Part shown: piece after piece, positions 17,199 to 53,490 of the stretch
Layout: each line of letters begins with the position of its first letter
How positions within the stretch are numbered: position 1 is the first letter of the stretch
DNA from: Chromera velia
Lineage: Eukaryota
Length of the DNA stretch: 54,224 nucleotides
Reading direction: 5' to 3'
NCBI GenBank assembly: GCA_018398765.1
Contig: JAHBMJ010000189.1
Span: 1 to 54,224, forward strand
Translations under genes and position numbers: made by a program
The notes under the pieces: model-generated
Database searches by the model: none
The model's input: the letters and a program-made list of their open reading frames with translations, nothing else
What the model was told of the DNA's origin: nothing

Positions 17199-17233
<35 letters not shown>

Positions 17234-17493
17234 GAAAGAAAGGAATTGAAAAAGTAAAGTAAACAAAAGACGATATAGTCTGTCTGTCTGTCTGTCTGTC
17301 TGTCTGTGTTTCATTGCTGCTTTGAAAGGAGAAAGAAAAAAAGAAGTCATACATTCTGTCTGTCTGTCTGTCTTTCTTTCTTTCTTTCTTTCTTTCTGCT
17401 TGCTGTCGTGTTTTCTTGCTTTCCAATTCGAGTCTTTTCTGCCCTTGTTTATTTCTTTTGCTTTTTTTCTGTTTCGTTTTATCGATCTATATG

Positions 17494-28719: not shown

Positions 28720-29540
28720 CCTAGGTGGGTCCTAGGGTGGGTCCTGAATAGAATCCGAGGATGGATAATGAATAAAATCCGAGCTGGGTCCTGAATAGAA
28801 ATGAATAGTGTGGAGCTAAGTATGGAGCCAGGTTTCATCTTTTTACAACTGAAGTATATGTTCGGTATTCTCTTTGATTCCTTACTCTAGCCTTTAGACT
28901 ACTAGCCCTTTACTACCGATCACCGATAAAATTAATTTTGAATAGAATCCGAGATGGGTCCTGAATAGAAATGAACTAGGCCCTGCACTACTAGCTGCAT
29001 TATACATAAAAAAAAATAAAAGATCGGGAAAACTTTTTTTTAAAAGAGATTTTTTTTTTTAAATTAATTTATCATGGTAGTCAACAGGCAAACAACCAGC
29101 TGTTGTTCATGCAGCAAGTGTTAGAGGAGTGTTGTACGGGGTATTAATTGCATTAAAACTATAGTTTTTTTTGTTAATAAATAAAAAAAGAAAAAAAAGA
29201 TCGGAACCTAGATCGGAACTAGAATCGGAAACTTTCTTTTTTTTCTCTTTTTTTTATTATTATTATAGAGTGCAGAGCCTAGGAAATAAATAATGTGGAC
29301 TAGGGTGTGGAGCTAGGTATGGAGCCAGGTTTCGTCTTGTTACAAGTTACAACTAAAGTATATGTTCAATATTCTGTCTGATTCCTTACTCTAGCCTTTA
29401 GACTAGCCCTTTACTACCAATCACCGATAAAATTTTGTATAGAATCCAAGATAAGTCCTAAATAGAAATAAATAGTCTGGATTAGGGTGTGGAGCTAGGT
29501 ATGGAGCCAGGTTTCGTCTTTTTACAACTGAAGTATTCTT
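28720..29540. repeat. Imperfect tandem repeat of about 180-200 bp (2-3 copies) interrupted by a MITE
   Basis: GTGGAGCTA(A/G)GTATGGAGCCAGGTTT recurs near 28810, 29307 and 29489; TACC(G/A)ATCACCGATAAAAT recurs near 28915, 29415 and 30115. Confidence 0.75.
28980..29278. mobile_element. AT-rich MITE
   Basis: Ends GCCCTGCACT and AGTGCAGAGC form a 9/10 inverted match, flanked by CTAG on both sides (28976-28979, 29279-29282). Confidence 0.6.
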
Positions 29541-30513: not shown

Positions 30514-32197
30514 CTACAGTCTCCAGTACCATCCCTTTCGCTGTAGGACAAGGGCTACGGGGACCAGGAAGAGAGAGGGTACACAGAAAGACCATACGAC
30601 CCCTGCCAGCTGACATCCCATCCAGGATTTTAAAAGAGGACCAAACACCCAAACCTCCCCCACAGACTTTCCGTCTCCATTCTCTAAATTCAACAAACTG
30701 TCAATGGACTCAGACAGGAGATAGAGAGCAAGAGGGTTACGACCAAATGCGACCAGCACAGATACAACCAAGTTCTTTTGCAGACAAACGGCACCATACC
30801 CTCCTGTCGTGACCTCTCTTTCTTGCCCCCTTTCTTGCTGCACTTGGGCAACCCCTTCTCTAACTGCACCAGAGTCCTTTTCTTGAGGAACGCCAACAAG
30901 GTGCGAACTTCTGTTCAGGTTGTCAAGTCCCCCCCCCCTTCCGTCCTTCCTCTCTCCACTCTTGTCACTTTCATTCCCTCCCAACCCCGGGCCTTCTCTC
31001 GATTCGCACCCCTCCCTTCTCTCCTGTAACAGAAACAGATTCCCCTCTTGCCCCCGTGTGCTTCTTCCTGAAGTTGGCACGCTCCCTCCATTGCTCTGTT
31101 TCCTCCCCTGTTCATCGTTCCTCTCCTTCTGTGTCAGAAGCAACTGGTGGAGACCGTGCGACTGATCCTGGATCAGGTCCTTGGCCTCTCCACAAGACTC
31201 TGCTGTCTCCCCCCTTGCCTGGATCTTCACCTCCAATTGACCTGACTGTGACGGCACTTCTACAGAAGACTGAGCAGTCCTGCTTTGTGGGAGCGCATCC
31301 AGAAGAAAAAAACACACGGCAAAGGTAGACAGGGACGCCCCCCCTGTAATGAAGGCAAAAGGGGGGGTCCAAATTTGCTTAGAGATCGGGAAGAAGTTCC
31401 ACAAAAAAAGTCCAAAAACAATTAGACAAAAGGTCCCAATCATCCAGACACACACGGAAAGAAACCGATTCGCACCCTCCCCCCCCAACAACTCCTTCGT
31501 TCGTCCACCCAAACGAATATGCACTCCCACCATCATTCCCAGGATGCAATTCAAACAAGCCGTCAAAGTCGACAGGGCTCCTTCCGGGTCGAAATATTTC
31601 GACTGCCTGTAAAGATGTGACGATCCAAAAAGCTTCCGATCAACGAACCCCTCGGCAGAGCATTTGGGAGTCAGCACTCCTCTCCCACACTCCTCATCTT
31701 CCACTGAAGGAACACAAAGTTCAAACAGAACACCGCTGTAGATCGAGAGCAGCACCGCTGCGCTTAATGCGGGGATGCCGAGCAATCGACCGAAGTCGGG
31801 TTGTCCACCGCTTTCTCGCGCCACTCGCACGGAGTTCTTTAGAAGTAATTCGAATAAAATTGCGGTAAAGGCGTAGCACACCGCCAGTCTCTGGAGCACT
31901 CCCATCAGTCGAATGTTCTCGAAGAAGACGCCAAATTTGCCTCTCCAGAAGTCCACAAACGGAAATTCATTTACAAACAAACCGAGGAGGAACAGCATCA
32001 AAACACGTCTCCAGAATTTGAACCAACGGATGGGGCCTGTCAAAGCGAAAGGAATGGACATACCTGCAAACGCTCACTTAACACAAGTTAAGTCGGTGAA
32101 ACGAACGACAAAAGAAAACGAAAGTAGAGACAGACAGACATAAAAAGATAGACAGGAAGGAGGGAAGGGAAAGGAAAAAGAAACAGAGAAAGAGAGG

Positions 32198-34349: not shown

Positions 34350-36536
34350 ATGACCGCCTTATCTTTGGCAGAGCATTCTCTCTTCTTCGCGAAGATTGTT
34401 CCCTTTTTCGAGAGTGAACTTCTACACCGTTTGAGGGTTTGCCGTTCGTGGAATGAGAAGGTGAGGAAACTCGTGCGGCGTCTCTCCTTCTACAGCAATT
34501 ACGGGGACTCTATTTGGGTCGAGACCGATTCCCCAGTCGACGGCTCTGATCGTGAAGACGACGACGACCGTCTCATCCTCAAGTTCTTCCCCTACCTCCC
34601 AGCTGGAGGCCTTGACTGCTTCACCAAGTGCTGGTCAGGCGTCCGACGTCTGGACCTTCTCGTTGACGTGAAACCTCCAGACCTTCTTGGAAAGGCACTC
34701 GGGCACTTGACCCGCCTCTCCCACTTGACAGTGTCTCTCTGTGCTACCGATCTTAAGATGCTCTGCGTTCTCAACCCAGGGACCCTCTCAGAGCTTTGCC
34801 TCAGATGTCCAACCGGTTGTTGGCATCAGAGTGCAACGGAGGCAGAAAATGAGAAGGTGAGGTCGCAGGCAGCAAAGGGGGCTGAGGAAGTTTTCCAGCG
34901 CTATGGAGAGACTTTGCGGAAGTTTCGGCTAGACCTTTGCGGCTTGTGTGATGGAGTTTTGCCGTCTTTTGAAGGGCAAAATGCTCACAGCACGTCCTTA
35001 CAAATTCGCAGTCAGTGTCCACTTTTGGAGGTTGTGGAACCTCTCGCATGTTCCTGTCACCACTGTAGAAAGATGTATCGGAATTATGAGCAGGTTGGAA
35101 ATTCCGACCCTGAGCAGTCTCCGGTAGTCTCAGTTGAGGACTATTTGGTTGGACGGAATTTTGACTGTGTGAAGTTGGGACGCTGGGGGCTTCGTCTGTC
35201 TAAGACAGATTGGGAGGCTGTGAAGAACCCCCGACTTACTGGGTTGAGGTATCTACAGGTGTGTGGATGTCTTGCACAGGAGGAAGAAGGGGATTTTGAA
35301 GAGATGGATGTGGACTCCGAGGATGTGAGGGCTGTGTTTGAACAGAACCGAAAAATCGAGTTTAGTTGTCTTCAGTTTTCAAACGAACAGCTGCTCGGTT
35401 TGTTGCCATTTGCTCAGAATCTCCGCTTTGTCAGTTGGTTGTTTGGGTCTTTCTCAGAAGATGTGTGGCGGGAGATGGGAAGGTGGCTGGTCAATCTTCG
35501 CGTGATGTCTTCAAGCTCTTGTCATGATCTCTCGGACATTCACATGAAGGCGTGGGCAGAGGGAATCAGGGCAAGTGGGAAGCCTTCCAAGGTGCGCGTG
35601 ATACATCACAAGGGCTCACGTGTCACTTCTGAGGGCCTTGTAGCAGCCGTTCTTCCCGATAATTTGTGTCCCGAGTTGAGGTCCATAGAGGTGGGGGAGC
35701 ATTGGTCGGGGAGATGGTCGGGGGGAATGAGTGCAGAGGGGATTCGGGCGTGGGCCGGGTCGGGGTTGTGGAGTTTTGCGGTTAACTGGCAACGTCCTGA
35801 GAATTCGGGGGGGTTGTTGGAAGGTCTGAAAGACTTCCTTCGAGGTCCGGTGAGGGTGAGTTTGAGGGAACTTTCCTTGTGGAAAATACGGGGGAGAGTC
35901 ACAGACATTGACGACGAACTGATTGAACTCATCTGTGGTTGTCCCCAGCTGAGCGTATTGTCGTTGGGGAGCGTCGATGGCGTCTCAGTTGCGGGATGGG
36001 AAATATTGAAGAGAGCGCGGGTAGAAAAGAAAATCAGGCTGAGGAGCCTGTGGGTGGGGTCAGACACAAGGCCTGCAGACCTCGATACTGTTGCAACGCC
36101 TTTCTTCCCTCCCCTTTGTCCACCCCCACAGAGTTTGAGTGAGATAATAAGAGAGGAGAATGAGAGAAGACTTGCAGCTGAACGGGAGGAGCAGAGAACA
36201 CAATCGGTTTTGGACTCAGCAGCTGAGGGGGTGAAGAATCAAATTAAAGCAAACTTTCGTCAGACCCTTGTGAAAGCTGCCGCTGAATCGGCAATGCCGA
36301 CTGGGGCAGTCAAGCCAAAGGTCATGCAGTCTCCTTTCAAGTCTATTGGAGGAATTCCAGTACGCGTGGGAGTTCTCTCTTTTTTTGGGAAGGCTCTTGT
36401 TGACGAGATCATTCAAAAGGCCGTTGATGATCTCAAGGTGAAAGAAAGAATTGTGAAAGAGCGCCGAGTTGCGTGGAGACAAACTGTAGAGAAAGAAGGC
36501 TGGGAGACCTGGAAAAGGTTGGTTGATACCTTTTGA
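34350..36536 (+). CDS. Intronless 728-aa F-box-like / leucine-rich-repeat (RNI-like) protein
   Basis: Uninterrupted ORF; N-terminal KIVPFF...LHRLRVCRSWNEKV resembles an F-box; LxxLxL repeats such as CPLLEVV, CPELRSIEV, CPQLSVLSL and SLRELSL. Confidence 0.6.
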   Translation: MTALSLAEHSLFFAKIVPFFESELLHRLRVCRSWNEKVRKLVRRLSFYSNYGDSIWVETDSPVDGSDREDDDDRLILKFFPYLPAGGLDCFTKCWSGVRRLDLLVDVKPPDLLGKALGHLTRLSHLTVSLCATDLKMLCVLNPGTLSELCLRCPTGCWHQSATEAENEKVRSQAAKGAEEVFQRYGETLRKFRLDLCGLCDGVLPSFEGQNAHSTSLQIRSQCPLLEVVEPLACSCHHCRKMYRNYEQVGNSDPEQSPVVSVEDYLVGRNFDCVKLGRWGLRLSKTDWEAVKNPRLTGLRYLQVCGCLAQEEEGDFEEMDVDSEDVRAVFEQNRKIEFSCLQFSNEQLLGLLPFAQNLRFVSWLFGSFSEDVWREMGRWLVNLRVMSSSSCHDLSDIHMKAWAEGIRASGKPSKVRVIHHKGSRVTSEGLVAAVLPDNLCPELRSIEVGEHWSGRWSGGMSAEGIRAWAGSGLWSFAVNWQRPENSGGLLEGLKDFLRGPVRVSLRELSLWKIRGRVTDIDDELIELICGCPQLSVLSLGSVDGVSVAGWEILKRARVEKKIRLRSLWVGSDTRPADLDTVATPFFPPLCPPPQSLSEIIREENERRLAAEREEQRTQSVLDSAAEGVKNQIKANFRQTLVKAAAESAMPTGAVKPKVMQSPFKSIGGIPVRVGVLSFFGKALVDEIIQKAVDDLKVKERIVKERRVAWRQTVEKEGWETWKRLVDTF

Positions 36537-37447
36537 ACAACAGACTCAGTTAGTTGATTGATTGATTGATTTATTGATTGATTGATGCAAAACCCTGGGT
36601 GCAGCTTTCAGCTCCCAGGGGAACCTGAATTCAAATAATTCATTCGCATTAAATTTCGCAAGTAAAAGCATACAAGTCTAGATCTAGCCTATATTAGCCT
36701 ATCCTATATATGTATATCATATATAATATCATATAAAATTAATAATGAGATGATACATTGAGATCATTGGGCCGGCCAGGAAGGTCCGACGCGTGTATGC
36801 GCTTTTCCTGGACGCCGTACGTCGAGTGCTCGGCATTGGGGTAGGAGGCCAATCCTCCAGACATTAATCCTATCCTATCCTATCCTAATGAGATTATACC
36901 GTGTGTGTAGGTTGTGGTGCGAGCGTGAGCGAGCGCCTCACCTTACTGCATTGACTGTGATTGGGGCATTGACTTAAAGTTTGTTCCTAGCATCTGGCCT
37001 ATACGTCTTTCATCTCTTCCTTCTGTCCTGATTACTGCTCTCGCTACTAGCTCTCTCTCTCATGCGACCTCATACTTGACGCTCCTCCATCATTGACTGT
37101 GATTGAGCTGACCCGCGTGTGTGTCTTTCCGGGGCCGCGATTGAAGCAAACATGCGCGTCGTAGCATATGTTTTAACCACATGATGTAGACGATAGTGTA
37201 GCAGCATTCACGGGTCCGTTCTGCTCACTCGTAGGAGTATGCAAGAGGTTTGTTCATAGACTTTTCCACTCGATCAGCAGACGAATTCAGACTGATTTGT
37301 TCTATTCGGACATCTCTGAGTCTAATGTGTTCAATCAGATCGGCAGGGCGCGGCAGGGCTTGCGTCGGGCACCGTCGGCGTGGTGCATGCGCGGGCGGGG
37401 CCGTGGGTGCACAAGTTGTGGCATACAACACAAATCCCCCCCCCCCC

Positions 37448-37476
37448 NNNNNNNNNNNNNNNNNNNNNNNNNNNNN
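37448..37476. other. Assembly gap inside a C homopolymer
   Basis: Run of N. Confidence 1.
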
Positions 37477-37509
37477 CCCCCCCTTTTTTTTTTACAACTT
37501 TGCTTCTGA

Positions 37510-40500
37510 TCACTCATCGGGGATGTGTTGGCTAAAGAATGGGAGAAGAAACGTGGGGGCCATGCTTTTAGTCAAAGGGTCAGCGCGGTTGAGGTCGGTT
37601 GAAATATAACACAGATGGATACGGCATGCATCCAGAGTGTCGCGCAACGCGAGGGTAGACACAGACCACTCCAGGAGCTTTGCTTGGAGAGATTCGACAA
37701 CCTTGGTAATAGACCGCTCATGTGGATGTGGATAGTCTGCGGCAACTAAGTGCAGCACGTCTTGTACGTCAGTGTGCACTGTGCCGGACACTCCCTCTCC
37801 CCAGACGACCCGCAGGCAGGGAAGAACAAACTCCATAAAATCTACCAGGTCGTGCGAGGTGTAGTACCCCTGGTGTACAGCTCAGTACGAGCACTGCTTT
37901 GAGCAACGCGGGGCTGTCGAAAGGACCTCCAATGAATCAGGGAGTTTCTGATCGCAATCAACCACCCGGTGTGCGGGTGGGCACACTCCGCAGTTCCGAG
38001 TGCCGCATCCCCCCACCCAGTCACGTCCAACGGCTTTGAACGCTTGGAGATGTCATCTCTGCAAATGTAGAGGGTGCGGTGTTTGGTTACGGCTGCATAG
38101 CGGACAGCGCCATAGAGATACTAGTGGAGATACAAGAGGCTGCGCTCGGTTGGACAGGCAACGGAGCGACTGAGTTCGTTGCAGGCCTCAGCAAGGTCCG
38201 GTCGGGTGTCTCGAGCGACCCAAGCAAGGCCGCCCAGGAGAGAGCGGAATGAGCGGGCCTGGGAAGCAGGCAAAGCGGGGGAGTCGTCTAGACGGTCGCG
38301 AGAATCGGGGGGAAGCGGAGTGTTTAGGATGGGTCCGGGCGGGACGGTCTGCAAGAGAGACTGCACATTCTTTGCCTGACTCAAACGGATCTCGTCTTCT
38401 CGGAGTTCAATGTCTACCCCAGCCCACCGGGCGCAGCCGTTTGTATCTGCTTTCACTTTAGTGATGGTGAAAGGTCCTTTGGATGCAATCTCGTCGACAA
38501 GCTCGGACGGAGATGCCCCAATGCCAATCACGGCCAGGTCGTCGACGAAAGTCGCGCACAGGCCAAGCAGTCGAGAGGACTCTACTCCTGGCTGGCCGGA
38601 CCATTTCCACCACAAGCCCGGAACCCCGCTCTTCATCCACCCTGCCTCGAGGAGCACACGGTCTCTATGGTGGTCAAAGATGAAGCCGCTGTCCTTGAGG
38701 CCGTAGACAGCTTTCAAGAGGAGCCAGAGGTGAGTGCGGTACTCGGGATGGTCAGGAGGGGGCCGCACATACGTGGGCTCTCCACTTGGGGAGTCAGGGC
38801 GGGGAGCTGTGAGGTAGGCATTTTCGATGTCGGCAAGGAGGAAAGAAGTGAGGGGGTTGAATTCGAGAAAGGTGAAAGCAATGCACAGCGCAATGCGGAG
38901 ACCCCATTGGGCTATATTGGGCTGCTGTGACGTTGGAAACGGGAATGTCCGACCGGCTGTCGAAGCGGGGGGAGCCGTTAGCACAGAGATGGGACTTGAA
39001 AATGCGCTCATGTTCTGACACGCGCTTCAATGTGTTCCTCCAGATCAAGGGGATGGCGGTGCGACGGGCTCAGGGAGGAACTGCATCGATTGGAATGCTC
39101 TGCTTCACACCATAAGTCTCAAACTTCTCTAACTCCTTCTCCCTCCCCGCTTGGTGCTATGCCTGTTCCTCAGGGTCCTTCAGGTCATGAACGCGGACCG
39201 GGATGTGTGTAGTGGCGTTGCTGCAGGGATTGGAGGCGGTTGCAGAGGCAGCAAAGGCAGCAGGGCAAACGGAGAGGTCAGGAGAGGGGCGGTACTCTGA
39301 TTCAGCAGTGGTTACGGAGAGGGCAGCAAGCTCGGCAAGGATTGGGATGCTCCAGAGGGAGTCGGGGGCAGGAGTGCGGGCGACAGAGAATGTGGAGGCA
39401 TGCATAGAGACGGTAGAATGGGGGAGTCGGCCCTCAGGGGAAAGGGAGATGCGACGCTCTCGAATCTTATCTAAGGCAATGATACAGATGTCGGGGTTGT
39501 GGGAAGGGGGCTGCTGGTGCTGGTATCGGACACGGTGCCCCGTGGGATGGCGCCACATGGGAGCAAACATGCAGTTCTTCAGGGTACCATGCCTGAGAGA
39601 GCCCTATGCATGGACTTCAAGGAGTTCTGTCTTCTTCTCAATCCCAACTATCTTCCCCAGGAAGCGCTTCTACGTCTCGGGGACCTCTCAGATGATCATC
39701 TCTCCCTGATGAAAATCGTGAACAGAAGGCAACTCACCGAGGGTGGGCTCAGACGGTGCCGAAGGGATAGGGGATGAAGCATGGGGTGGTGAAGGCGGGG
39801 AGGGCTGACTATCTGAAGGAGAGCTGGAGGGGGGGTGCAGCGGATTCAAAGGGTGCGGTAGGGAAGAACGGGAGGCGGGAGGGGAGGTCTCTGAGGAGGA
39901 ACGAAGACACCGAATGTGTGCAAATGTGGAGCGCTGGGTGCGAGACAGCTGAATGGTGTATACATGCCCCCCGTGTCTCTGTTTGATGATTATATCTTCC
40001 CATAAATCCTCTCTCTTGTCCCTCTACGTTTCTGGATGATTGAACAACACCCGATCCCCCGCAGAAAAAGACTTAGTGCGCAAAGAAGGGTCATTCTTTA
40101 ACTCTTCTGCTGAAAGGAGGTCAAGCATTGCATGAATGCTCGGGAAAACAACGGGCTGACCATGTCGGCGTTCCGCAGGAGAAATGTCCCCTCGACCCGG
40201 ACGGCGGTTGTAGCGTTCGACAGCCAGTTGAACCACGTCAGGCCATGACTCAACGGGCAGTCCGTTGTCGTGGACGATCGCCCGCAGAATTACATCGACC
40301 TCCCTGTGGGCGCACTCGAGGCGCCCGAGGGTCCGGTGCCAACCGACAGGGGCAAGCGTGTGCCCGACTTCTATCTGAGACAAGAAGTCTGCCCAGTCCC
40401 CCTGAAATTCCTTTCCCAAATCCGTGATGACCTCATTGGGATAGTATCCCGCTGAGGTCGCTGCCCACCCCTTGTAGGCTTCACGAAGGGTGGCAGCACA

Positions 40501-41975
40501 CCTGTCTGACACAGCAATATAGTGCAGGTCGTCTTCCCACTCGTCTTTCAGAGTGAGGTAATAGCGTGCGTTAGGGCGGTCGGCCCTTCCGTATACTAGG
40601 TCAGCTTGCAGGCGCTGCCTGGGACCTGTGACCTTCAAGGGAGATGTGCAACCGTCAGAAACATTGCGAGGTTTTACGCATGCGCAGGTCCCCCCCACAG
40701 CTCGTCGTGAAATACCGTAAGGGGGGGCTTTGGGGTGCCCTTTCAGTGCCCGACGGAGGGAAATCCAGGTCTTCGTGACGCGTGCATGCCCAATCTCAAC
40801 GTGGTGGGCACAAATCAATTCATCGACCATCTCAAAACTGATGGTCTCCAACTCGGAGGCTGGAGGGGAGCGGCTGCCCTTTCGGGGGCAGCGCTTACGC
40901 AGACGGCACTTTCGCTTCTTTTTTTCAGCAGTCACACCCTTGATGTGCAACACGGGGCACGCTGCAGCTTCAGTCGTAGAAGCTGTATGGCAGCATGAGC
41001 ACGGCGGACCCGGTCCTGTAAGGAGACGGAGGCTCACGACCATCGTCAAGGGTGGTTGGCTGGAGACGACCGACTGAGCAGTCGGGGAGGGCCCGGCAGT
41101 CTGCGGCTGGGGTGGGTCTACATTCGGTTCGGCATGACTCGAGTCGGATGGGCAGGGAAGAGGTGTATAGCATCCATTGTCCTCTGAGGGCACAACAGAG
41201 GATGAAGTTGGCGCTGAATATGAAGACGCCATGGTGAGGGTACGGGGCTCTGTAGGTTTGGAGGCGGAGACGGTGTCATTCGTGCGAAGCTCTGGGGGCT
41301 GAGACAACGCAAGGAAGAACAAGTCGTTTGGGGAGCGTTGGAAGTGCAGAGAGGGGCGATGGGGAAAGGAAAGAATGCCCGTGGCATACTCAAATGACGC
41401 CTTGAGGGGAATCAATGCCGCATTTCCGATCAAGACCGGAGTGATCGCGTTGGTTTCCAGGATGTCTGCCTCGAGAGAGAGATCACCGGAGAGGCTTCGA
41501 CATGGGATAATGGCCTTTAGCTCCACAGGCATCTGACCGTTGGCAGTCAAGGAGGTGGAAGGCCGGGGCAAGCGGCGCGCTCGGTCCATGTGAGCTCGTC
41601 TTCCTCCTTCCGCTTGCGCAGCCACCCACGAGTGCAGCAGGTGCGGCTGGCTCCAATGTCCAGGATTGCAAAGAATCCATGAAAGGCGAAGGAGAGGAGT
41701 ACGGAATTCTGTGCAGCACGCAAAGCTGCCAAAGCACTCTCCACAGCTGTGCGGACATCTGCAGGGAGACCGTCCAAGACAGTGGAGATGCTGGAGGGGT
41801 CAGAGCAAGCATTCGGGGTGACCTCCTCAGGGTTTTGCAAAACAAGCAACGAGGAAAATGAGGAAGAGCAACCGGAGACGGCGGTCTCGGTGCTGTTGCG
41901 CAAGCAGATTTTTGGATAGACTTTGCCTGAAGCAATCGTAGCATCAAGAATTTTGTTAAGTGAGGCAACAGACAC
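37510..41975 (-). pseudogene. Frameshifted copia gag-pol
   Basis: Protease AILDIGAS; integrase HHVEIGH, LQADL, VITDLGKEF, GRLECAHRE; RT LADIENAYL, KAVYGLKDSG, FVDDL; RNase H WGDAA, SSARTEL, NRADPLTK. Split over several frames. Confidence 0.9.
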
Positions 41976-44971
41976 TGGCTAGCTGACCAGTGAGGAGAGG
42001 TCGTAGCGAGGGGAGGACGACGTTGACTCCATTGTGTAGATACCGAGAGGGCACCACACGATCAAACGAAGAAGAGTCCTCTACCAGTGCATAGCAAGAA
42101 GCGGATCAAACCACATCTGCTACCATGATGTAAACCACAGCGAAGCAGCATTTACGAGTCCGTTCTACTCACTCATAGGAGTATGCAAGAGGTTTGTTCA
42201 TAGACTTTTCCACTCGATCAGCAGACGAATTCAGACTGATTTGTTCTATTCGGGCATCTCTGAGTCCAATGTGTTCAATCAGATCGGCAGGGCGTGGCAG
42301 GGCTTGCGTCGGGCGCCGTGCATGCGCGGACAGGGCCGCGGGTGCACAAGTTATAGCATACAACACCACACGAATCAGCAGCCACGTTTCTATTGCATCA
42401 GCGCGTAAGATCAGTCTGATAGTAAAACACCGAAAAGAGGAACAACAATGGTCGTTCCGACTGACAGACTCTTATACTGCCTAGACCACGTTCACGTAAC
42501 AGGTGCTAGCAGAGTCTTTATTCTGACCAAGGGGATAAGAGAGGCGTTGTTCGTTGATTGAACCCACGTTCAGTCGAGTGAACCCATGACGTATGGTTGT
42601 CGGAGCATCAGCATGCAGTCTTGTTGTGCAGTTGTTCACGACCAGTCAGGAGCCACAGATCAGTAGAGAGCCCTGTAATACAGGCAGTAGAACTGAGTAG
42701 AGAGACATGAGAACATTCTTCGATAGAGCCGAAGAAGTGTTTGCGCTTGGGGGAAAGATAGAGCGTCTCCGTCATTAAGCATTCAAAAAAAGTTGTGCGG
42801 ATTTCGAGGCAGTGATCGTAGAGGTGTGCCGACTTGCATGCACCTTTCATCACAACAGGCCCACCAAGCAGAGAGAGATCGCTATGTAGGTAGAGTCAGC
42901 AACTTTACCTGCAGGGAATAAGAAGAAGAAATACAGGTGAGCTCGTGGTCTCTCTCAGCGGGCGTGGTCCGACATCGAATTCGAAAAGAACCATCGGGCA
43001 GTGATGAAGCAGCAGAAGCAGGCAGAAGCTTCGAGGCAGGAAGCATCAACGAGTGGAGCTGTCCTTGCAGCTTCACCATTGAGGAGAGAAAATTGTGTCG
43101 CCCAGAGAATTGTGCGAGAGGAAGCACAAGGAGACACAAAAGATATGGAGAGCCCATGCGAGATCCCCACTCCCCACACCCAGCAGATTGCCGCAAAGAG
43201 CAGTACACCTCCCAGTAGCCCAAGCAGAAAGCAAGAGCTGATGACAGATAAAGAGATGGAGGAGGTGGAGACGGTATTTCGAGAGAGAATATCGCTCTCT
43301 CAGGTTGAGAGGACGAAGCAATCAGTAGCAGTCAACGTGTTTGCGCTCTTCACGCAGTCAAGGAGAGCCCAAGCAGATGAGAAATTGAATGAGTTGACCA
43401 AGACGCGACGCAAGAAGTGGCGCCTTGCTTTCGCAGATGTGGTGGGAAGAAAAGCAAGTGTGTCGGAAGAGGAGAGAGTGTCGTTGATGGGACCAGCAGA
43501 ACGGAAGGCATACAAGAAGGAGTGCTACCGTTAGCCCTATCTAACAGGAGATGAGATGCTTTCCCAATGGCAGTGGGATCGTCCAGGCCGATCTCCACAA
43601 ACCAAGCCACGAAAGCTTGCAGCGCTCAGAGAAGCACGGGGCTCTGGATGTCGACTCGTGACGAAAAAGGAAGGAGCGAGACAGTGGCGCTCATAGAGAT
43701 GTACAGTTTATCTGTAAATATGATTGTTCGCAGACAAGAGACGGGACCAAAGGCCCGACAAGACAGCAGAACCAGCTCGCAGTGTTCTTATGCAGCGGCA
43801 TTCAAAGTGTAGACGATTGGTTGTATACTAGCTTGTACCAGTCGTTCATGTTGAAAGTGCGACGAGCGTGCACAGATACATTGCCACCAGAAAAAGGAGA
43901 GAGGGAGGCTACAGGGTTGGCGCGTCTGACCCTACAGAGACTGGAAGGGTTGCCACCAGAAGTCATGCGCATGCACCAGGCGAATAAGCACGTGCAAGTC
44001 AAGTATGACCATAACTCTGCTCACAGCCAGCCACTGTGACAGCTTTCATGTCAATTATGCCAAACGAGGTGTGTGCGTGTGAATGACATGATTATGGAAA
44101 GATTTTCACCTTCATGTACAGATGGATGACTTTTCATTTCTTCGATACGAAGATCAATATGCATTCATTCTTGTCTGTTCTCTTTGGTGCGAGTTCATTT
44201 ACGTATGAGTAACTTTCAAAGTAACTTAAAGCATGAACGAAGTGCGCTCGAGGGTGAATGAAAACCGTTGACAGAATAAAACGATCGGGGACGATCATTC
44301 TAGGGGGGAGGCATGTGTAGCGTCTGTGTAGGTTGTGGTGCGAGCGTGAGCGAGCGCACCGCCTTACTGCATCGACTGTGATTGAGCTGGTCCACGTGTG
44401 TGTCTTTCCGGGGCTGCGATTGAAGCAAGCACGCACGTCATAGCATATATTTTAACCACACGAATCAGCAGCCACGTTTCTATTACATCAGCGCGTAAGA
44501 TCTGATTCAGTCTGATAGTAAAACACCGAAAAGACGAACAACAATGGTCGTTCCGACTAACAGACTCTTATACTGCCTAGACCACGTTGATGTAATAGAG
44601 GTGTTCATAACTATACTAGCTATTATGCTGAGTGAGAACCGTAATTCGGATTAGCTGGGATTAGCTATGATCATAGTTTCTAGATTGATTGAGAGTTAAA
44701 CTGTTGAAGTGATTCAATCACTGACAACCTTCACTAATTTAAACAACATTGATCGAATTCTAAATTGATATATATCCGGTTTTCATTCTAATCTCATTCT
44801 TCCATTTCGACTTCTTCGGACTTATTATTAAGTCCGGAGGAGCACGGAACAAAGCTGTGGTGGCTTGCTTCTTTTGTCTACAACTATATGCACTGTAATG
44901 CACTGTAGCATACATGAGTTGCCATAAGTTGCCATTAGTTGCCATTCGTCTCTACTTTTAGAGACTCTAGG

Positions 44972-47900
44972 TGTGACGTGAATGCTCGTAGCCGCGCCGC
45001 CTCTAAGCGTTGGCGTGGGCCGGTCGGTGGCGTTAAGAGAATGCAGGAGCCTGCCTTACGGGACTGAGTGGAAGTGCGCGCACCTATAGCCACTCCAATC
45101 GATATAGCTTTAGGACGGCTTGTGTTCATGGCATCCAGATTGACTATCAGGAGAACCGGACTTTGAAGTAGGACTTCTAGGATGAACGTTTCTAGAATAA
45201 GCCAACCGTCCACTCTTTTTTTGAGTCGTTACTTTTATGTCTTGGAATATGAGCTCCGTTACCGCTAGACTACTGATTATATTACAGGCGGATAGCAGAG
45301 CTTTGTTCGAACAGACGGCTCAATCCAAAGTAGACAGAGTCACAAATTTCTCCCTGTTCAAACTGAGTGTGGTGCTTCCATAGAACAGTTGGTCTGATAG
45401 ATTGATCTGGTCTTTCCTTTATGAGCCACACGAGAGAAAGTATTATATTTGAAGAAAATGTGACTACCTGTAGAAAGAGACCGTGAATGGTGATCCACAG
45501 AGAGAGAATTTTTTTTTAAGGAAGGGTAAAACTAGATAAAGCCAGACCACTGGTGTACATAGATTGTTGCGATAAAAGCACAGAGGAAAAGGAAAACACT
45601 GTGCTGATTGGCTCTCTGCCGAGGCTATGTGTGAGGTTCTGTCGGCCTCGGAAGACTTAGTGTTCCCTGAGATGCAAACCTCAGGAAGATGAGACTGAAT
45701 GAAGGCCTCGTTGATGGCAGATCGAGCGTGCTGATGGAAAACCTCTCTCTGGTCCCCTCTCTGAAGATTGCTTCCACAGAAACGGAAGGAGAGGGAGGCA
45801 GGTGACTCTGTGAATTGAGAGTGAAGGGAAGAAAAGAGCTAGAAACAGTGAGTCCAAAAAGGGTGAGACGCTGTTATCAATTTGGACTGTTGTCAGTCTG
45901 ATGGTAAGGACTCGACATGGTAGATCGATGGAAAACCCGTGTGAGATCAGAGTGTAGAGGAAGTGTTTCTGTGCATGCTCCTCTCAGTCATCTTGTCGTG
46001 TTGTATAGGGACCTGCGCAAATCGAGAGAAGAAGCTGCTTGCTGTAGACTCCAGAGAGGGCAGGGCATGTCATTGATAGAACAAGGAGTAACTGAGGAAT
46101 TTCAAACGGGCAGACAGAGCATGGACCGCGCTTCCGGTCGTGCTGACCTGTACATGAAAAAACGAGTCTGCGTCTTTCTGATTCCTTTCGCGTAGACTCT
46201 TGTGAGGTTGGGCTACCTCCCGTGGAAGCAGGTGGCATGCCGTGAAGAGCGACGAAGGAAGAGGAGACGGCAGGGTGTGAGAACACCTGGTCGCCTGGAC
46301 AGGACCCCAGACAAGAAGAGAACAAGTCAGCTGACTGTAGGTGCACATTGTCCCTGTGTTTTCGTTTTCATACTATTAGAATGAAAAAGGAAGAGACGGG
46401 AAATGACAGTCAGCGAGAGCGCCTGGAAATCCTCAGTACTCACTTTGTGTGAGGGCGCCCAGTAGAAGAGAATGGATGAAGAAGAGTAGAAGGACGAGAA
46501 GAAATCAAATAGAAAGAAGAAAGAATTAAGGAGAAGAAGAAGAAAAGAATAAGGAGAAAGAGCGGGATCATGAAAAGAGAGAGGAGATCGAGAACGGCGG
46601 AAAGGCGCATCCAACTTATCAAGATTGGTGCTGTCTGATGAACGGAAGAAATTTAAAAAGCCTGTGTGTGCCCCCAACTTACTAATAGTGGTGCCACACA
46701 GAGGCCTGTACCAACGGTGATGGCAGGCTGATCGAAACAAGCCTTGCAAAGACGTACGAGGCCTATCTGGAAGGCTAGTCTGGAAGCGGGATGCTGGTTG
46801 GTGTGGCAGTATCTATCCGTAACGTTGTGAGGCTTGCAGCCGCCTAACGATATGCAACGCAGCATCTTAGGCCGTATCGAGATACGTGCAGTTCGAGCGC
46901 ATTCGCGTCTATGCAATTAAGTCACGCGCATGCGCATGCAGTTGGCAGTGAGTCAAACCTTGGTATGAAAGTCTGTAAGGAAGTATCTAGAAGTAAAAAC
47001 CTGGCATGACCTAGGGCATGACAGATCCTGTATGTACGAGTCGTGTACGTTACGCTAGCCACTGATATGCACCTGCCCACCACTTAGCATGGTAGCAGAG
47101 GAAGAAGGAGAAAGAGAAAGAAAAATCACTGTGTAGACATCTCTAGGGCAGCCGTAGGTGTATCCAATGATAACAGCATCATCCAACCAGGTAACCCACA
47201 GTCCAAATATCTTATGAGAGAAGGGGCTGCGCAGAACAGAGGATCTTCTCCTAGAGAGAGAGGGTTTGAAACGAATCTAACTTGCCCTGCTATGCCTTTT
47301 CAGGGGGCAGACAGAGGTGAATTGTCCCGTGGGGGAAATGACTGGCGTAGCGGAGTGCCTATGTACGATGACAATGACCATGTTGGTCAGTCGTTCCGAA
47401 AAGAAGGCGGAGAGATATGTAAAATGCAGGAAGAGAGTGGGTTTGTCAATACCGATGAGGGCATAATCTTTACAACGCCTCAGACGACTTTTCATTTTGG
47501 TCAGAGCTCCTCTGTGATGGCTCCTGCTGGAGGGGATGGTCAATTAAATGAATGAGCCCACTCCAATGGAGCTATGCCAGATCGAAAGGTATAGGAAGGA
47601 AGAAGGAGGTATGGGAAAGGACTTGTTTGAGTCATTGTATAGAGTTGGGAGTTGGGAATTGAGAGAGCAAATCCACTGCCAGAGATCGCACAGCCCATCT
47701 CCGCAGCTCAATCATTTGGAGACAGGTAGGCAGGGAAATGACTTTGACGGTACGAATCTGGGGAAAGCAGAAAGACAAAAACAGAAGCGTCAAGAGAAGA
47801 AGGAGAGAAAGAGGCAGGAAAAGCATGAAAGAGAGATGCTGGCTGTGAGGCAAAAGAAGGAAACGGACAACCCTGGGTCTCCTCTGCCTCCAATCAGTGA

Positions 47901-50726
47901 GGGGGTGGAGGAACCGGCAGTCCCATCTAATGGTTTAACACCATCTTGTCAGGCCAAGCATCAGCAAGAGAGAAGGGAAGCGAAGACCAAAAAGAAGGAG
48001 GGAAGGCAAACAGCTCATGAAAAACCAAGGACGCCAGATCCACCGCATGATCCGCTGCAGCACGAGTATTAGGAGGATGTGTCTTTTCGTTTTCAGTTGG
48101 GAAGGGAATTAAGACTTGATCCCAAATGTTCAAGGAATTGGCACGGCAGACTGGGATGCATTTTTGGTACGTCATAGGTGTAGACAGACAGGAGAGACGT
48201 TTTACAGGGAGAATATGATGTATAGAAATGGAGGGAGTGTGATGCCGTGTGTGCCGGAAGTGAGATCTGCAGTGCGGCAGATAAGGACCGTATGGACTGC
48301 CCGCATTTCAGCGCAGTCTTCTATCAGTCCACAACCTCCATCAGAGCAGCAGCACCAAACTAACGGAGTCTCGGATCGAACAAATGGAAAAGAGCCGGGG
48401 GTGATTGTAGGGCCAACCGATTGGGAGATACAGTACTATAACATCCAGTGGACTCCGTGAATGAAGGAACGATTTTAAACTGATATCTGTTTTCCACCCT
48501 TTTGCGTCTGATTTTTTTCTTCTCTGTTGTTATCGTCATGCGCGTCACACTCTCTCTGACCGAGTGTGGACGCGGCCTTAAAGGGTGAGGGGGCGTGCAT
48601 ACGGGGTGTACGGTAAAGTTGGTACAAATGGTGGTTGGTAGTTGTGATGGTTTAACTGGAGTAGACTATGAGTTGACGATGCGAAAGAGAAGAAAAACCA
48701 CAGGAAAGAGGGTAAAGGGAATTTTGAAAACAGAAATAACAGAGATAAAAGAAAAGAAAAGAAAAGCGACCTTTGATTTTTGTGATACCGCAGGTGAGGG
48801 AAAGCGATGATCTAATCAACGATCACTATTTCATTGCCGCGAAACGTTGTATAAGAGAATTCACTCACGTTTTCTGCGTAAACCAGCGTGGACGTGGCTT
48901 CAGGGGGGATATGGCACATAACGTTGTGAGGCTTATAGCCACCTAACGGTACACAACGCAGCATGTCAGGCCATATCAAGATACGCGCAGTTTAAGCGCA
49001 TTCGCGTCCATGCAATTAAGTCACGTGCATGCGCATGCAGTCAGTAGTGAGTCAAACCTTGGCATGAAAGTCTGTAAGGAAGTATCTAGAAGTAAGAACC
49101 TGGCATGACAGATCCTGTATGTACGAGTCGTGTACGTTACGCTAGCCACTGATACGCACCTGCCCACCACCTAAAGCTGTCGGTGCAGGAGAGAACGGGA
49201 AAGAATGGATTAGAAGAAGCAGAAAGAATGAAGGTGAGAAGGAGAGATAGGAGAATGGAAGAGGGATTGAAGAGCTGAAGAAAGACTGAAAGGATGGAAT
49301 GGAGAAGGAAAGAATGAATGTTCTTATCTTTGTCTTGTCTTTAACCTTGTCCCCGTCCATCTTCGCTACCTGAACCTTAAAGTTTTCTTTAACTTTCTTG
49401 CGCTTTGCTGCTTAGAAAAAGAAAGAAAGAAAGAAAGAAAAAAAGAAAGAAAAAAAGAAAAAAAGAAGGAAAGAAAGAAAAGAAGGAAAGAGTGAATGAA
49501 AGAATGATTGAATGAATGAATGAATGAATGAAAGAAAGAGAATGAAGGGAAGCAGAAGAAGAAATAAAAGGCTTAGCGAACAAAAGGTGGAACAAGAAGG
49601 AATGAAAACAAGGGAAAGGTGGAAAGAGAAAGAAGGAAAAGGAAATATAGATAACAGCTTGAGAAGTTGCTAACGCACTTCTTCTGTGAGGAAGGAGAGG
49701 TGTACACTGATTGATGCACTGATACACTGATTGACGCACTAACACACTGACGCTGAATAGAATGACTCGAGGATACTTCCTCTCATATTTTTCTATCTCT
49801 CTTTATTTTTCTTTTAATACATCTCGATACAGATTCTTTTCTCTGTGTCTTGATTCTTATCTTCTCATATATATTTGGTCTCTCTCTATGTATTTTTGCA
49901 TACCTTCTCTCTGAAGCGAGTTGGCATGTGCATTCGCAGGATTTCTTTGTCCTTTCCGACTGCGAAAGTGTTTCTAGTGTTTTCTCCCTGATACATGCCG
50001 AACCAGAACCACTTTACGGGAGGAGAGCTCCACTGCGCAGACACCGCCTCTTGAGTGCCTGTGGTGTCATCATTCATTGTTTGCACAGTGAGTGGATGGA
50101 TGATGAGTGAAAGTGTATGACTGCCTGTGAGGCGATCTCTATATGAGCTCATATGCAGTGACAGATTCGTGAAGCTTCTTGTGGTGACTGATCGCTTACA
50201 CACACCGTTATCCCGTTCTTATTTGCTTGAGGCAGCGATGTTCAAGATGAATGGTTAGCACTCCATGCATATGCTTGTGGCAGTGTTAAAACCCGTGTCA
50301 GTCGTTGTATACCGACTTCTTGTGTGATTTGAATCTGATGCGAGGGAGAAAGGAAAGAGTATTAAGGAGAAATAAAGCGATTGAAATTGAGTACGAGATC
50401 TCAGATCATGTGTGGACACACGCCTTGGAAGGACGGGCATGTGTGACGTGAATGCTCGTAGCTGCACCGCCTCTAAGCGTTGGCGTGGGCCGGTCGGTGG
50501 TATTGAGAGAACGTAGGAGCCTGCCTTGCGGGACCGAGCGGAAGCATGCACATCCGTAGCCACTCCAATCGATATAGCTTCAGGACGGCTTATATTCATG
50601 GCATCCAGATTGACTATTAGGAGAACCGGACTTTGAAGTAGGACTTCTAGGATGAACGTTTCTAGTCGTTACTTTTATGCCTTAGAATATAAGCTCCGTT
50701 ACCGCTAGACTACTGATTATGTTACA
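44972..50726 (+). mobile_element. LTR element C (outer, heavily decayed, possibly gypsy-derived); LTRs 44972-45286 and 50442-50726
   Basis: TG...CA direct repeats, perfect TSD CTAGG (44967-44971, 50727-50731), PBS-like GGATAGCAGAG at 45290; weak SYLL...HMLVAVLKP remnant near 50215-50295 that resembles the gypsy integrase C-terminus. Confidence 0.85.
46802..49175 (+). mobile_element. LTR element D (non-autonomous, about 2.4 kb) nested in C; LTRs 46802-47089 and 48910-about 49175
   Basis: Direct repeats of about 270 bp; PBS TGGTAGCAGAGGA at 47090; PPT AGGGGGGA at 48902-48909; internal short ORFs without RT motifs. TSD not resolved. Confidence 0.85.
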
Positions 50727-51239
50727 CTAGGCTAAACCATAATTAAGTTAGTAATAGTAAATAAAGTAAGTAAGTAGATGCTAGTAGATGCTTAGTAATG
50801 CTTAGTTAGAGTTAGGTTGTATTAGGTAGCTAGACTGGAGGCGACTTGAGCTTCTGAGTGTTTGATACTTGTCTTGTCTTGTCTTGGCAGACTTACACTG
50901 CCGGCCCCGCCCTTGTTATGAGCCCATGCACGGCTATGAATGCAAGCCGCGGCGCCACGGCCGCGGCCGGGGGTCGGTGCTCACAAAATTCGGAGCGCGA
51001 CCAGCCGCTTCGTTTCATTACGAAATCTTCAATTACAGTGGAGAAGTAGAGGTACCTGATCGAGAGGATCTGGAGACAATCGCTCAGCTGTTCTCATCAC
51101 GCAACTCCCACTGTTAGCATCTGCTCTGGGAATCGTTTCTGTGGACGAACAGTTCACGGTGGATTCTCTGTCTGTCAGACACCCTGCCTCCAAAACTCTT
51201 TGAAGCTCCCCAGCCCAGACAGGAGGTATTTGAGGCAAA

Positions 51240-52254
51240 ATGGCTGACGCAGAGGAGGGGTTTCAGAATTTTGACGGGGAAGATTTCGAAGGGGACGGGG
51301 AGATGGGAGATGAGGAGGTGAGACGGGGAGTGATGGGATGGGATTTCCGGGCGTCTCCGTTTTTTGCAGAATCCTTCACTGAAATTTCGTGCGTGTCTTC
51401 CCGCAGGGAATGGGGGAAGACGACATGGGCGGGGACGGTGGCGGCTATGATGACGAAGCATATGACGTCATTCATGAAGACGAGAACGCAGAGCTGAAGC
51501 CGAGGTCCGTCCTCTTTCAAATCTCTGTGTCGGGAGTGGGAGACGGGGAGACGGATGGGGTTTTATTCATGGGTGTCTTTGTGTTTTCTGCTGCATTTTG
51601 GCAACACGGATTGGGTCAAAACTTAGCTCATGATCACGTGAGTCTTTTGCCTTTTGCACCTCCACATGACACACATGCTGGCCCGCTGCAGCAAAGAGAG
51701 GATCACAAGTCCATTCATGACCAAGTATGAAAAGGCGCGAATCATCGGGACACGGGCTTTGCAAATCAGGTCGGTGATGCGTCACTAATCACTCTCCACT
51801 TTCCTTCATCATTACTCAATTCCTGACTTCCTTCTCCATGCACATCTCACCCCCCAAGCCTGCCGCTCTCTTCTTCTCTCTGTCACAAGAGAATACTGTG
51901 TGCTCAGACGAGCCCCCCCTGTTGACGCTTCCCCCCTCCGCTGTTTTTCACTCTACCACAAAAGCACCCCTCCCCTCTTTCCCCTCCTTTCAACTGACTG
52001 CCAGCCCGGGGAGGGATAGCCGACACGTATGCAGAGATCTGGTCCTAGTGCTCTTACCTTCTTCCTTTCTTCCTTTCTGTCTGCTGTGCAGCATGAATGC
52101 CCCTGTGACGGTCGACGTCGGAGACCTCACAGATCCCCTGGCGATTGCAGAGAAGGAGCTCCACGCAGGCACGCTCCCGTTCATCATCAGGCGGTACCTG
52201 CCCAACGGGGCGTTTGAGGATTGGCCTCTGGAGGACATGGAGGTCCCTGAATGA
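51240..52254 (+). CDS. RPB6: DNA-directed RNA polymerases I/II/III shared subunit RPB6 (RPABC2), 4 exons
   Basis: Acidic N-terminus MADAEEGF..., then [25 protein letters not shown] | [44 protein letters not shown]. Confidence 0.97.
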
Positions 52255-52827: not shown

Positions 52828-53167
52828 CTAGGGGTAATTTTCAAACAAAAAAAAAAACAATTGGTCATTTTCACTTTTTTGTTTGTTGTTTTTTTTCTGA
52901 TGTCAAACTAAAAAATATGTTGTTTAAGTGTTGTTGATGTGTTACACGAATTAACACGAATCAACAAGTGTTGTTTAAGTGTTGTTATACTATTGTTTCT
53001 TTGTTATAATGATAAATGAATGTTGTTACACTATTATACAACTGTTGCTTTTATGTGACAAGGTCTTGCATATGGTTGTTATGTCTTGATAGAGGTCATC
53101 ATTGAAAAGCAAAAAAAAGATAATAAATTTACCCTGGAGACTTTTTTTTTTTTTTAATTACCCCTAG
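52828..53167. mobile_element. hAT-like MITE
   Basis: TIR CTAGGGGTAATT / AATTACCCCTAG with a perfect 8-bp TSD CTCCTCAG (52820-52827, 53168-53175). Confidence 0.85.
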
Positions 53168-53202
53168 CTCCTCAGATACCATTCTGATACCCTAGTTTAC
53201 AG

Positions 53203-53490
53203 TAGGGAACACTCTGTCGTCTTAGCTTTGGCGACAGATAGACATCTAGATATACATTTTAAGGGGGAGACACTAGCAAGGCAGCTAGTGCAAAACTATT
53301 AAATCAATCTCTAGCAATCAATCATTGACAATCAATCAAATCAATCAATCCTATACATTAAAAGTAATTTAAAATAATTTGCAATATTCTAATTAAGTGA
53401 TTGATTGATTGATTGATTGATAGGTTCCACATTAGGCCTTCCCGCTATATCTATCTGTTGCCAGAGCTAGCAGGGTGGAGCGTTCTTTAG
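53203..53490. mobile_element. Degenerate foldback/MITE
   Basis: Imperfect inverted termini of about 40 bp (TAGCTTTGGCGACAGATAGA vs TCTATCTGTTGCCAGAGCTA), with inner (ATCA)n and (TGAT)n tracts also inverted. Confidence 0.6.

What the first reader, a model, noticed from the sequence alone, without database searches (positions are those of the whole stretch)
44972..50726. RIP-like hypermutation: LTR pair differs only by C>T/G>A transitions at CpG and CpA
Manual alignment of 44972-45286 with 50442-50726 gave about 25 substitutions, all transitions, over roughly 285 aligned bp. Nearly all are CG>TG/CA/TA or CA>TA (TG>TA), and both copies are hit. Established: CpA>TpA change in duplicated DNA is the signature of fungal repeat-induced point mutation, while plain CpG methylation decay would not explain the CpA class. 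Inference: this protist has a repeat-directed cytosine methylation/deamination defence. I do not know of such a system described in alveolates.
Basis: partly seen in the sequence, partly recalled or inferred. Interest (0 to 1): 0.78.

Follow-up and report, generated by a model that had tools for sequence, protein, structure and literature searches.

The report
RIP-like transposon mutation in Chromera velia
Retrotransposon copies in the alga Chromera velia, a free-living relative of malaria parasites, carry a strong excess of C-to-T changes at CG and CA on both DNA strands, likely the footprint of a repeat-targeted mutation defence so far known from fungi, although a published survey lists none of the usual DNA-methylating enzymes for this species.

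Summary
Confirmed. The window is Chromera velia. 44972-45286 and 50442-50726 are the LTRs of one insertion (TG..CA ends, target duplication CTAGG) and differ by 25 transitions, 0 transversions in 286 columns. Changes per target site: CpG 13/50, CpA 10/31, CpC 2/34, CpT 0/39. Three more LTR elements and one non-LTR duplication in the window agree (pooled CpG 42/178, CpA 30/147, CpC 10/112, CpT 6/144). Other family copies polarise 17 of the 25 differences, all as C>T or G>A; two others may run the opposite way. Across the family both strands are hit equally, so editing during reverse transcription is not the main source. Host genes keep CpA and avoid TpA, which argues indirectly that the process spares unique DNA; no substitution data for unique DNA were available. 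Best reading: repeat-targeted cytosine methylation at CpG and CpA followed by deamination (0.55). It works like fungal RIP but membership is not shown: homology triggering and timing are untested, and a published table lists no RID or other DNA-acting DNMT in Chromera, only four DNMT2 genes (that table misses known genes elsewhere). My paper searches found no earlier description.

The parts
44972..45286 (+). 5' LTR of the outer element (315 bp, TG..CA); carries the T/A letter at 11 of the 25 differences
50442..50726 (+). 3' LTR of the outer element (285 bp, TG..CA, lacks 30 bp); carries the T/A letter at 14 of the 25 differences
44967..44971 (+). left target-site duplication CTAGG (right copy 50727-50731, identical)
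45287..45300 (+). primer-binding-site-like motif after the 5' LTR; shares TAGCAGAG with the two other plus-strand elements (likeness to an initiator-Met tRNA primer site is recalled, not tested)
50424..50441 (+). purine-rich tract before the 3' LTR
   Evidence: loose ends
45301..50423 (+). interior of the outer element, many stops, no Pfam family in any of six frames read with X at stops: non-autonomous or decayed
46818..49176 (+). nested LTR element: repeats 46818-47089 and 48917-49176 (22 transitions, 1 transversion in 257 columns), primer-site motif at 47090, flanking 5-mers CTATC / CTGTC (differ by TG/TA); its termini are not clean TG..CA
36895..44597 (+). neighbouring LTR element 'AC': 5' LTR 36895-42501 (interrupted by two insertions), 3' LTR 44316-44597; terminal TG of the 5' LTR reads TA and terminal CA of the 3' LTR reads TA, each intact in the partner; flanks GAGAT / GAGGT
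37182..42365 (-). Copia element inserted in the 5' LTR of AC; LTRs 37182-37431 and 42126-42365 (16 transitions, 2 transversions), target duplication CCACA, RVT_2 and rve matches below Pfam cut-off, broken frame
28746..29537 (.). intergenic patchwork of short local duplications without LTR structure; 11 G/A, 1 C/T, 3 transversions in 161 columns; one copy has five G>A against two others
50727..50900 (.). single-copy, TA-rich flank right of the insertion (TpA/ApT 2.78, (CpA+TpG)/(ApC+GpT) 0.68); old mutated repeat, spill-over or promoter, not resolved
51243..52254 (+). single-copy host gene used as control (RPB6-like by recalled motif; Pfam gave no hit on the unspliced frame); introns at about 51505-51690 and 51770-52090

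Best explanation
Retrotransposon copies in Chromera velia accumulate C-to-T changes at CpG and CpA on both strands after insertion, likely because a cytosine methyltransferase marks repeats at these two dinucleotides and the marked cytosines are then deaminated. Shown: the spectrum, its direction, its presence in several elements, and that both copies and both strands are hit; CG>TA double changes in one copy mean both strands of that copy were hit. Inferred: restriction to repeats (from composition of host genes and introns), accumulation over several rounds. Untested: methylation itself, whether deamination is passive or enzyme-driven, how repeats are recognised, and the enzyme; the only listed candidates are four DNMT2-class genes, so a divergent DNMT2 paralogue or an unrecognised methyltransferase would have to do it.
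For: Pair: 25/25 transitions; CpG 13/50, CpA 10/31, CpC 2/34, CpT 0/39. Six repeat pairs pooled: 88 transitions, 8 transversions in 1150 columns; CpA 30/147 vs CpT+CpC 16/256, p=3e-5; unpolarised test YpA 30/277 vs YpT+YpC 14/481, p=1.5e-5; outer and Copia pairs alone 16/69 vs 6/127, p=2e-4. Direction: 12 of 12 T/A letters of the 3' LTR in 50442-50620 face a C/G family majority (69-99% of X1 depth), and 5 more differences show the 5' LTR's T/A as a minority; two obligatory LTR termini of element AC read TA. Family sites with 5% or more T/A in X1: CpG 10/42, CpA 9/23, CpC 2/24, CpT 1/21. Family strand symmetry: C>T 0.288 per C, G>A 0.291 per G in X1; 0.263 and 0.266 in X2. Other Copia loci: 29 of 33 unambiguous residue differences are single transitions against 29% expected, 11 of 29 at YpA against 13% expected. 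Host control: synonymous C share before A 138/175 (0.79), G share after T 161/197 (0.82), intron 0.80; TpA o/e 0.28 in host ORFs and 0.35 in two introns against 1.21 in these LTRs. Precedent for a methyltransferase-dependent CpA mutator in repeats: PMC8016269.
Against: No substitution spectrum for unique DNA could be obtained (no genome; 0 differences over 1704 single-copy bases in X1 and X2), so repeat-specificity rests on composition, and the Copia ORFs have the same CpA-rich, TpA-poor composition as host genes. Sarre et al. 2025 Supplementary Table 1 lists 0 DNMT1, 3, 4, 5, 6 and orphan enzymes and 4 DNMT2 for Chromera, and DNMT2 is regarded as an RNA enzyme. In the 40 best-supported rows (of 1308) the 29 window T/A letters fall CpG 10, CpA 8, CpT 7, CpC 4, against 384, 634, 687 and 478 target sites: little CpA excess over CpT there, and 7 rows run the other way. 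Some strand bias exists: A>G 203 vs T>C 113 places (p=0.005) and upstream copies lean to C>T, downstream copies to G>A (21:12 vs 16:39, p about 0.009, post hoc), which passive deamination does not predict. Two TG/TA sites of the pair may be A>G.
Confidence: 0.55

Rival explanations
1. A true RIP analogue: duplicated DNA of any kind is recognised by pairing and mutated in bursts by a dedicated enzyme, perhaps at a sexual stage.
For: CpA hit as often as CpG; a non-LTR local duplication shows the same G>A pattern, five changes on one strand in one copy; strand lean within single copies (8:2, 2:8, 0:9); 14 of 23 hits of the outer pair lie in 60 bp, p=0.001; target duplications and a flank look mutated.
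Against: Load is mild (about 4% per copy); element interiors have TpA/ApT 0.52-0.66, not RIP-index positive; mixed C>T and G>A within each LTR of the finding; no clustering in the Copia pair (p=0.89) and weak in the nested pair (p=0.07); LTRs are shorter than the 400 bp cited for Neurospora, though the families are multi-copy; no RID listed.
Confidence: 0.15
2. A genome-wide mutation bias towards C>T at CpG and CpA that is simply visible in unselected repeat pairs.
For: No direct spectrum for unique DNA; host genes are mildly CpG-depleted (o/e 0.65; synonymous C share before G 0.43); TA-rich single-copy intergenic patches exist.
Against: Synonymous sites and introns of host genes hold C at about 0.8 of YpA positions and TpA o/e of 0.28-0.35, the opposite of what sustained CpA>TpA pressure would leave, unless selection or repair against TpA is strong even in introns.
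Confidence: 0.15
3. A DNA cytosine deaminase acts without methylation, on integrated repeats or on retrotransposon cDNA during reverse transcription.
For: No DNA-acting DNMT listed. 5' LTRs lean to sense C>T and 3' LTRs to sense G>A, the pattern expected from transiently single-stranded plus- and minus-strand LTR DNA (my reasoning from the standard reverse-transcription scheme); excess of A>G places.
Against: Family-wide C>T and G>A are equal per site over 4651 bases of same-orientation elements; the Copia RT region of the window copy has 5 sense C>T and 2 sense G>A polarised by a third copy; a non-LTR duplication and target duplications, which never pass through cDNA, show it too; the preference is on the 3' neighbour, with no 5' preference. 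These reject the cDNA form as the main source, not a genomic deaminase.
Confidence: 0.12
4. The CA/TA differences run the other way (TpA eroded to CpA/TpG), or come from assembly error.
For: The genome is very TpA-poor; two sites (50684, 50691) show no G at 5% or more among X1 contigs; an earlier scan note describes TpA erosion in a diatom.
Against: Six of the ten CpA-class sites of the pair are polarised as CpA>TpA by family majority; LTR termini TG and CA turned to TA; contigs of two runs match the window exactly across the LTR ends and flanks (534-538 bases; 1704 bases), though one run may be the assembly's own source.
Confidence: 0.03

Closest known systems
Repeat-induced point mutation (RIP) of Neurospora crassa (RID/DNMT4 and DIM-2 pathways; PMC3318451, bioRxiv 10.1101/115501)
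   Same: C:G>T:A transitions in repeated DNA, CpA among the targets, both copies and both strands hit, possible spread into flanks.
   Different: CpG is hit as often as CpA; the load is mild; no RID or DIM-2 listed for Chromera; homology trigger, length threshold and premeiotic timing not tested.
Dim2-dependent mitotic CpA mutator of Zymoseptoria tritici (PMC8016269)
   Same: C>T in transposons at CpA without need for a sexual cycle; CpT almost spared (there in methylation, here in mutation).
   Different: There more than 98% of C>T are at CpA and CpG is spared; here CpG and CpA are equal. No DIM2/DNMT1 listed for Chromera.
Passive deamination of methylated transposons (plants, e.g. Brachypodium PMC7497039; CpG-only pattern in Agaricomycotina, PMC3318451) and transposon-enriched CH methylation in Symbiodinium (PMC5890265)
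   Same: Transition excess at CpG in repeats after insertion, strand-symmetric; an alveolate precedent for non-CG methylation on transposons.
   Different: A CpA rate equal to CpG with CpT and CpC low needs heavy CpA-specific marking; Symbiodinium mCH is about 1%, and Chromera lacks the listed DNMT3/5 enzymes.
APOBEC3-type editing of retroelement cDNA (recalled, no paper read)
   Same: C>T changes in retroelements; a weak 5'/3' LTR strand lean here.
   Different: No sense-strand G>A dominance in interiors, no 5'-neighbour preference, and non-retro DNA is affected.

Membership tests
LTR retrotransposon (outer element) | Direct terminal repeats with TG..CA ends, 4-6 bp target duplication, primer site, purine tract | tested here: met
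LTR retrotransposon (outer element) | gag/pol coding (autonomous element) | tested here: not met
   no Pfam family at E<=0.05 in six frames read with X at stops
Fungal RIP | Strong excess of C:G>T:A transitions in repeats | tested here: met
   25/25; 88 vs 8 pooled; 948 vs 173 places in X1; direction
Fungal RIP | Non-CpG dinucleotide target, CpA in Neurospora | tested here: met
   CpA 30/147 vs CpT+CpC 16/256; but CpG equally high, and weak in the 40 rows
Fungal RIP | Both copies and both strands mutated | tested here: met
Fungal RIP | Unique DNA spared | tested here: inconclusive
   composition of five host ORFs and two introns fits; no substitution data for unique DNA
Fungal RIP | Triggered by homology, whatever the sequence (host gene duplicates are hit too) | tested here: inconclusive
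   one non-LTR patchwork duplication fits; no close host paralogue found to test
Fungal RIP | RIP-index-positive, AT-rich repeats | tested here: inconclusive
   LTRs TpA/ApT 1.24, substrate index 0.91; interiors 0.52-0.66 and 1.28-1.37, not positive
Fungal RIP | Needs RID/DNMT4 or DIM-2 | not testable with these tools
   proteome not searchable here; published table lists none for Chromera but also lists zeros for species with known DNMTs (Phaeodactylum, Dictyostelium, Plasmodium; their genes recalled)
Fungal RIP | Premeiotic timing; length and identity thresholds | not testable with these tools
   needs crosses or engineered repeats
Zymoseptoria Dim2 mitotic mutator | C>T almost only at CpA, CpG spared | tested here: not met
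   CpG 42/178 vs CpA 30/147, p=0.5
Methylation-deamination of transposons | 5mC present at the mutating contexts in repeats | not testable with these tools
   only contigs available
cDNA editing during reverse transcription | G>A dominance on the sense strand of element interiors | tested here: not met
   a mild lean remains

The most novel reading that the evidence does not exclude
Chromera velia has an independently evolved, homology-triggered RIP analogue in which one or more of its four DNMT2-class proteins (tRNA methyltransferases elsewhere) has turned into a DNA mutator of repeats at CpG and CpA.
Probability: 0.12. Interest if true: 0.92.

Novelty: new variant of a known kind. Interest (0 to 1): 0.7.

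Why it matters
Repeat-directed CpA hypermutation is described for fungi in the papers I read. A CpG+CpA version in a chromerid would place mutational transposon defence in the closest free-living lineage to apicomplexans, which have streamlined genomes. It would also have to run on an unlisted or repurposed enzyme, which makes the long-disputed question of whether protist DNMT2 proteins act on DNA directly testable in a culturable alga with about 30 Mb of transposons. In practice, LTR-divergence ages in this genome would be overestimated.

Tried and rejected
No whole genome is held, so no genome-wide RIP scan and no DNMT or deaminase search. One LTR pattern scan of metagenome contigs found nothing. 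No RNA holder listed for the element; no claim on expression is made. Searches for a close host paralogue as a control failed: P0001 and P0089 are singletons and 9 of 10 window ORFs tried were not in the collection. Polarising Copia residues by majority of eight homologues was rejected because most belong to subfamilies 38-68% identical; only the closest copies were used. The 67-column 5' piece of the AC LTR pair (3 transitions, 3 transversions; CpG 2/14, CpA 0/11, CpT 0/7, CpC 1/4) was left out of the pooled totals; adding it gives 91 transitions, 11 transversions and CpA 30/158. Triple hits on CpG as the source of the CpA class: rejected (0.5 expected). UV-type dipyrimidine damage: rejected, CpC and CpT are lowest. 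No 5'-neighbour preference. Atlas look-up of the AC ORF gave nothing usable; the representative search for the nested ORF was still queued and never collected. No tRNA genes in the window. The Gladyshev RIP review was not held.
Full report
Organism and data. The ORF at 30514-32073 is 100% identical to Cvel_15664 of Chromera velia, and the Copia RT matches eight C. velia proteins. Contig depths are not copy numbers, and one DNA run may be the assembly's own source.

Observation. 44971-45286 and 50441-50726 align over 286 columns with 25 substitutions, all transitions, and one 30-bp indel. They are the two LTRs of one insertion: TG..CA ends, identical target duplication CTAGG, a primer-site-like motif and a purine tract. 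LTRs are normally identical at insertion (established), so the differences arose afterwards. Taking the C/G letter as ancestral, hits per target site are CpG 13/50, CpA 10/31, CpC 2/34, CpT 0/39. The interior has no recognisable coding in six frames and holds a nested LTR element at 46818-49176.

Generality. The window holds three more LTR elements and one non-LTR local duplication. Six aligned pairs give 88 transitions and 8 transversions in 1150 columns, with CpG 42/178, CpA 30/147, CpC 10/112, CpT 6/144; CpA against CpT+CpC p=3e-5. One 67-column piece with 3 transitions and 3 transversions was left out of that total. A test that assumes no direction gives the same result (YpA 30/277 against 14/481), as do the two pairs with perfect target duplications alone (p=2e-4). 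Repeated hits on CpG would mimic about 0.5 of the 30 CpA events. Beyond the window, residue differences between the window's Copia RT and two close copies are single transitions in 29 of 33 unambiguous cases (29% expected), 11 of 29 at YpA (13% expected); a third close copy gives 17 transitions, 3 transversions, 2 multi-step.

Direction. Because this genome avoids TpA, the CA/TA class could run backwards, as an earlier scan note reports for a diatom. Laying family contigs on the 3' LTR shows that all 12 of its T/A letters in 50442-50620 face a C/G majority, and five of the 5' LTR's T/A letters appear as minorities: 17 of 25 differences polarised, all C>T or G>A, six of them CpA-class. Six others are not among the 40 rows shown (12 rows hidden). 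Independently, the terminal TG of one AC LTR and the terminal CA of the other both read TA while intact in the partner. At family level, sites with 5% or more T/A are CpG 10/42, CpA 9/23, CpC 2/24, CpT 1/21. Against this, the 40 best-supported rows (of 1308) show 29 window T/A letters spread CpG 10, CpA 8, CpT 7, CpC 4, a weak CpA excess once target numbers are counted; neighbours there were not corrected and the rows include changes older than the insertion.

Strand. Over 44200-48850 the family shows C>T at 0.288 of C and G>A at 0.291 of G in X1, 0.263 and 0.266 in X2, with 948 transition and 173 transversion places in X1. The three elements there lie in the same orientation by primer site and purine tract, so minus-strand cDNA editing, which would give sense G>A only, is not the main source; the Copia RT region also has 5 sense C>T against 2 G>A. 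Residual asymmetries remain: A>G 203 against T>C 113 places (p=0.005), and an upstream C>T / downstream G>A lean across five pairs (p about 0.009, post hoc). Hits cluster in the outer pair (14 in 60 bp, p=0.001) but not in the Copia pair; CG>TA double hits number 3 against 1.8 expected.

Is unique DNA spared? No substitution data were available: the single-copy stretch shows 0 differences in both DNA runs and no close host paralogue was found. Composition is the only control. In five host ORFs the synonymous C share before A is 138/175 and the G share after T 161/197, the highest of all contexts, while CpG is the lowest (166/389, 117/294); two introns give 0.80; TpA o/e is 0.28 and 0.35 against 1.21 in these LTRs. 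Sustained CpA>TpA pressure should leave the opposite (inference). The Copia ORFs share the host-like composition, and element interiors are not RIP-index positive, so the load per copy is mild. A non-LTR patchwork duplication at 28746-29537 shows the same G>A changes at TpG and CpG, a small hint that duplication as such matters.

Mechanism. The simplest chemistry for symmetric C>T chosen by the 3' neighbour is C5 methylation at CpG and CpA followed by deamination, passive or enzyme-driven (inference). The difficulty is the enzyme: Supplementary Table 1 of Sarre et al. 2025 (PMC12344493) lists for Chromera no DNMT1, CMT, DIM2, DNMT3, DRM, DNMT4, DNMT5, DNMT6 or orphan, and four DNMT2; Vitrella has none. 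That table also lists zeros for species whose DNMT genes I recall being described (Phaeodactylum, Dictyostelium, Plasmodium), and four DNMT2 entries occur in other species, so neither absence nor expansion is secure. I put 0.55 on methylation plus deamination of repeats, 0.15 on a true pairing-triggered RIP analogue, 0.15 on a genome-wide bias, 0.12 on a deaminase without methylation, 0.03 on reversed polarity or artefact.

Comparison with what is known. It works like RIP in outcome. It is not shown to be RIP: CpG equals CpA, no RID is listed, and trigger and timing are untested. It fails the CpA-only feature of the Zymoseptoria Dim2 mutator. Symbiodinium has low CH methylation enriched on transposons, an alveolate precedent for non-CG marking, not for mutation. 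The Tetrahymena genome paper treats RIP only as an analogy.

Literature seen. Passages: PMC4501334 (supplements searched, 4 of 16 files not searched), PMC9998398 (its supplements not searched and may list chromerid enzymes), PMC5890265, PMC8744675, PMC1557398, PMC3318451, bioRxiv 10.1101/115501, PMC7497039. Passages and one section: PMC8016269. Passages, one section and part of the supplementary table: PMC12344493. Not in print as far as searched: 'Chromera velia' + 'repeat-induced point' 0 papers; Chromera + DNMT5 + DNA methyltransferase 0; Chromera + DNMT + cytosine methylation, Chromera + DNMT2, and Chromera + deaminase + APOBEC gave 1-2 listings unrelated by title; two broader searches listed nothing on RIP-like mutation in alveolates among the rows shown. 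Subscription journals are mostly not covered. Earlier scan notes hold nothing on this in Chromera.

Verdict. A real, reproducible CpG+CpA C>T hypermutation of repeats in a chromerid alveolate; a new variant of a kind known from fungi, with mechanism and repeat-specificity still inferred. Interest 0.7.

Noticed in passing
window, five direct-repeat pairs (28808-29472, 37106-44598, 37182-42365, 44972-50726, 46818-49173): Upstream copies carry more C>T, downstream copies more G>A on the + strand (21:12 vs 16:39; stratified permutation p about 0.009, post hoc; the AC pair does not show it). The pattern is the same read from either strand. Unexplained.
   Followed up: partly
window 36895-44597: Nested stack: a Copia element and a 127-bp insertion with a 15-bp flanking duplication (36964-37090) both sit inside the 5' LTR of element AC, and the outer element of the finding starts 375 bases further on.
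   Followed up: partly
window 42502, 45287, 47090: Three elements without recognisable pol share a primer-site core TAGCAGAG and similar purine tracts: probably related non-autonomous families.
   Followed up: partly
window 101-700, 18001-18400, 28801-29600, 30101-30500, 44501-44700, 50601-50900, 53101-53300: Low-GC, TpA-rich intergenic patches in a genome that otherwise avoids TpA strongly; possible end products of the process, or promoters.
   Followed up: no
host ORFs 973-36536: Very strong TpA avoidance (o/e 0.28) and mild CpG depletion (0.65) in host coding sequence and introns.
   Followed up: partly
window 30514-32073 (-): Cvel_15664, HGSNAT-like acyltransferase whose best homologues are mostly bacterial at about 30% identity.
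   Followed up: no
window 34350-36536 (+): 728-aa single-exon ORF with no Pfam family and no homologue other than itself in the protein search.
   Followed up: no
window 43004-43534 (+): ORF inside element AC, no family, present letter for letter in a JGI/IMG and MMETSP record.
   Followed up: partly
window 15200-17400: Degenerate tandem array of about 80-100 bp units built around (GTCT)n.
   Followed up: no
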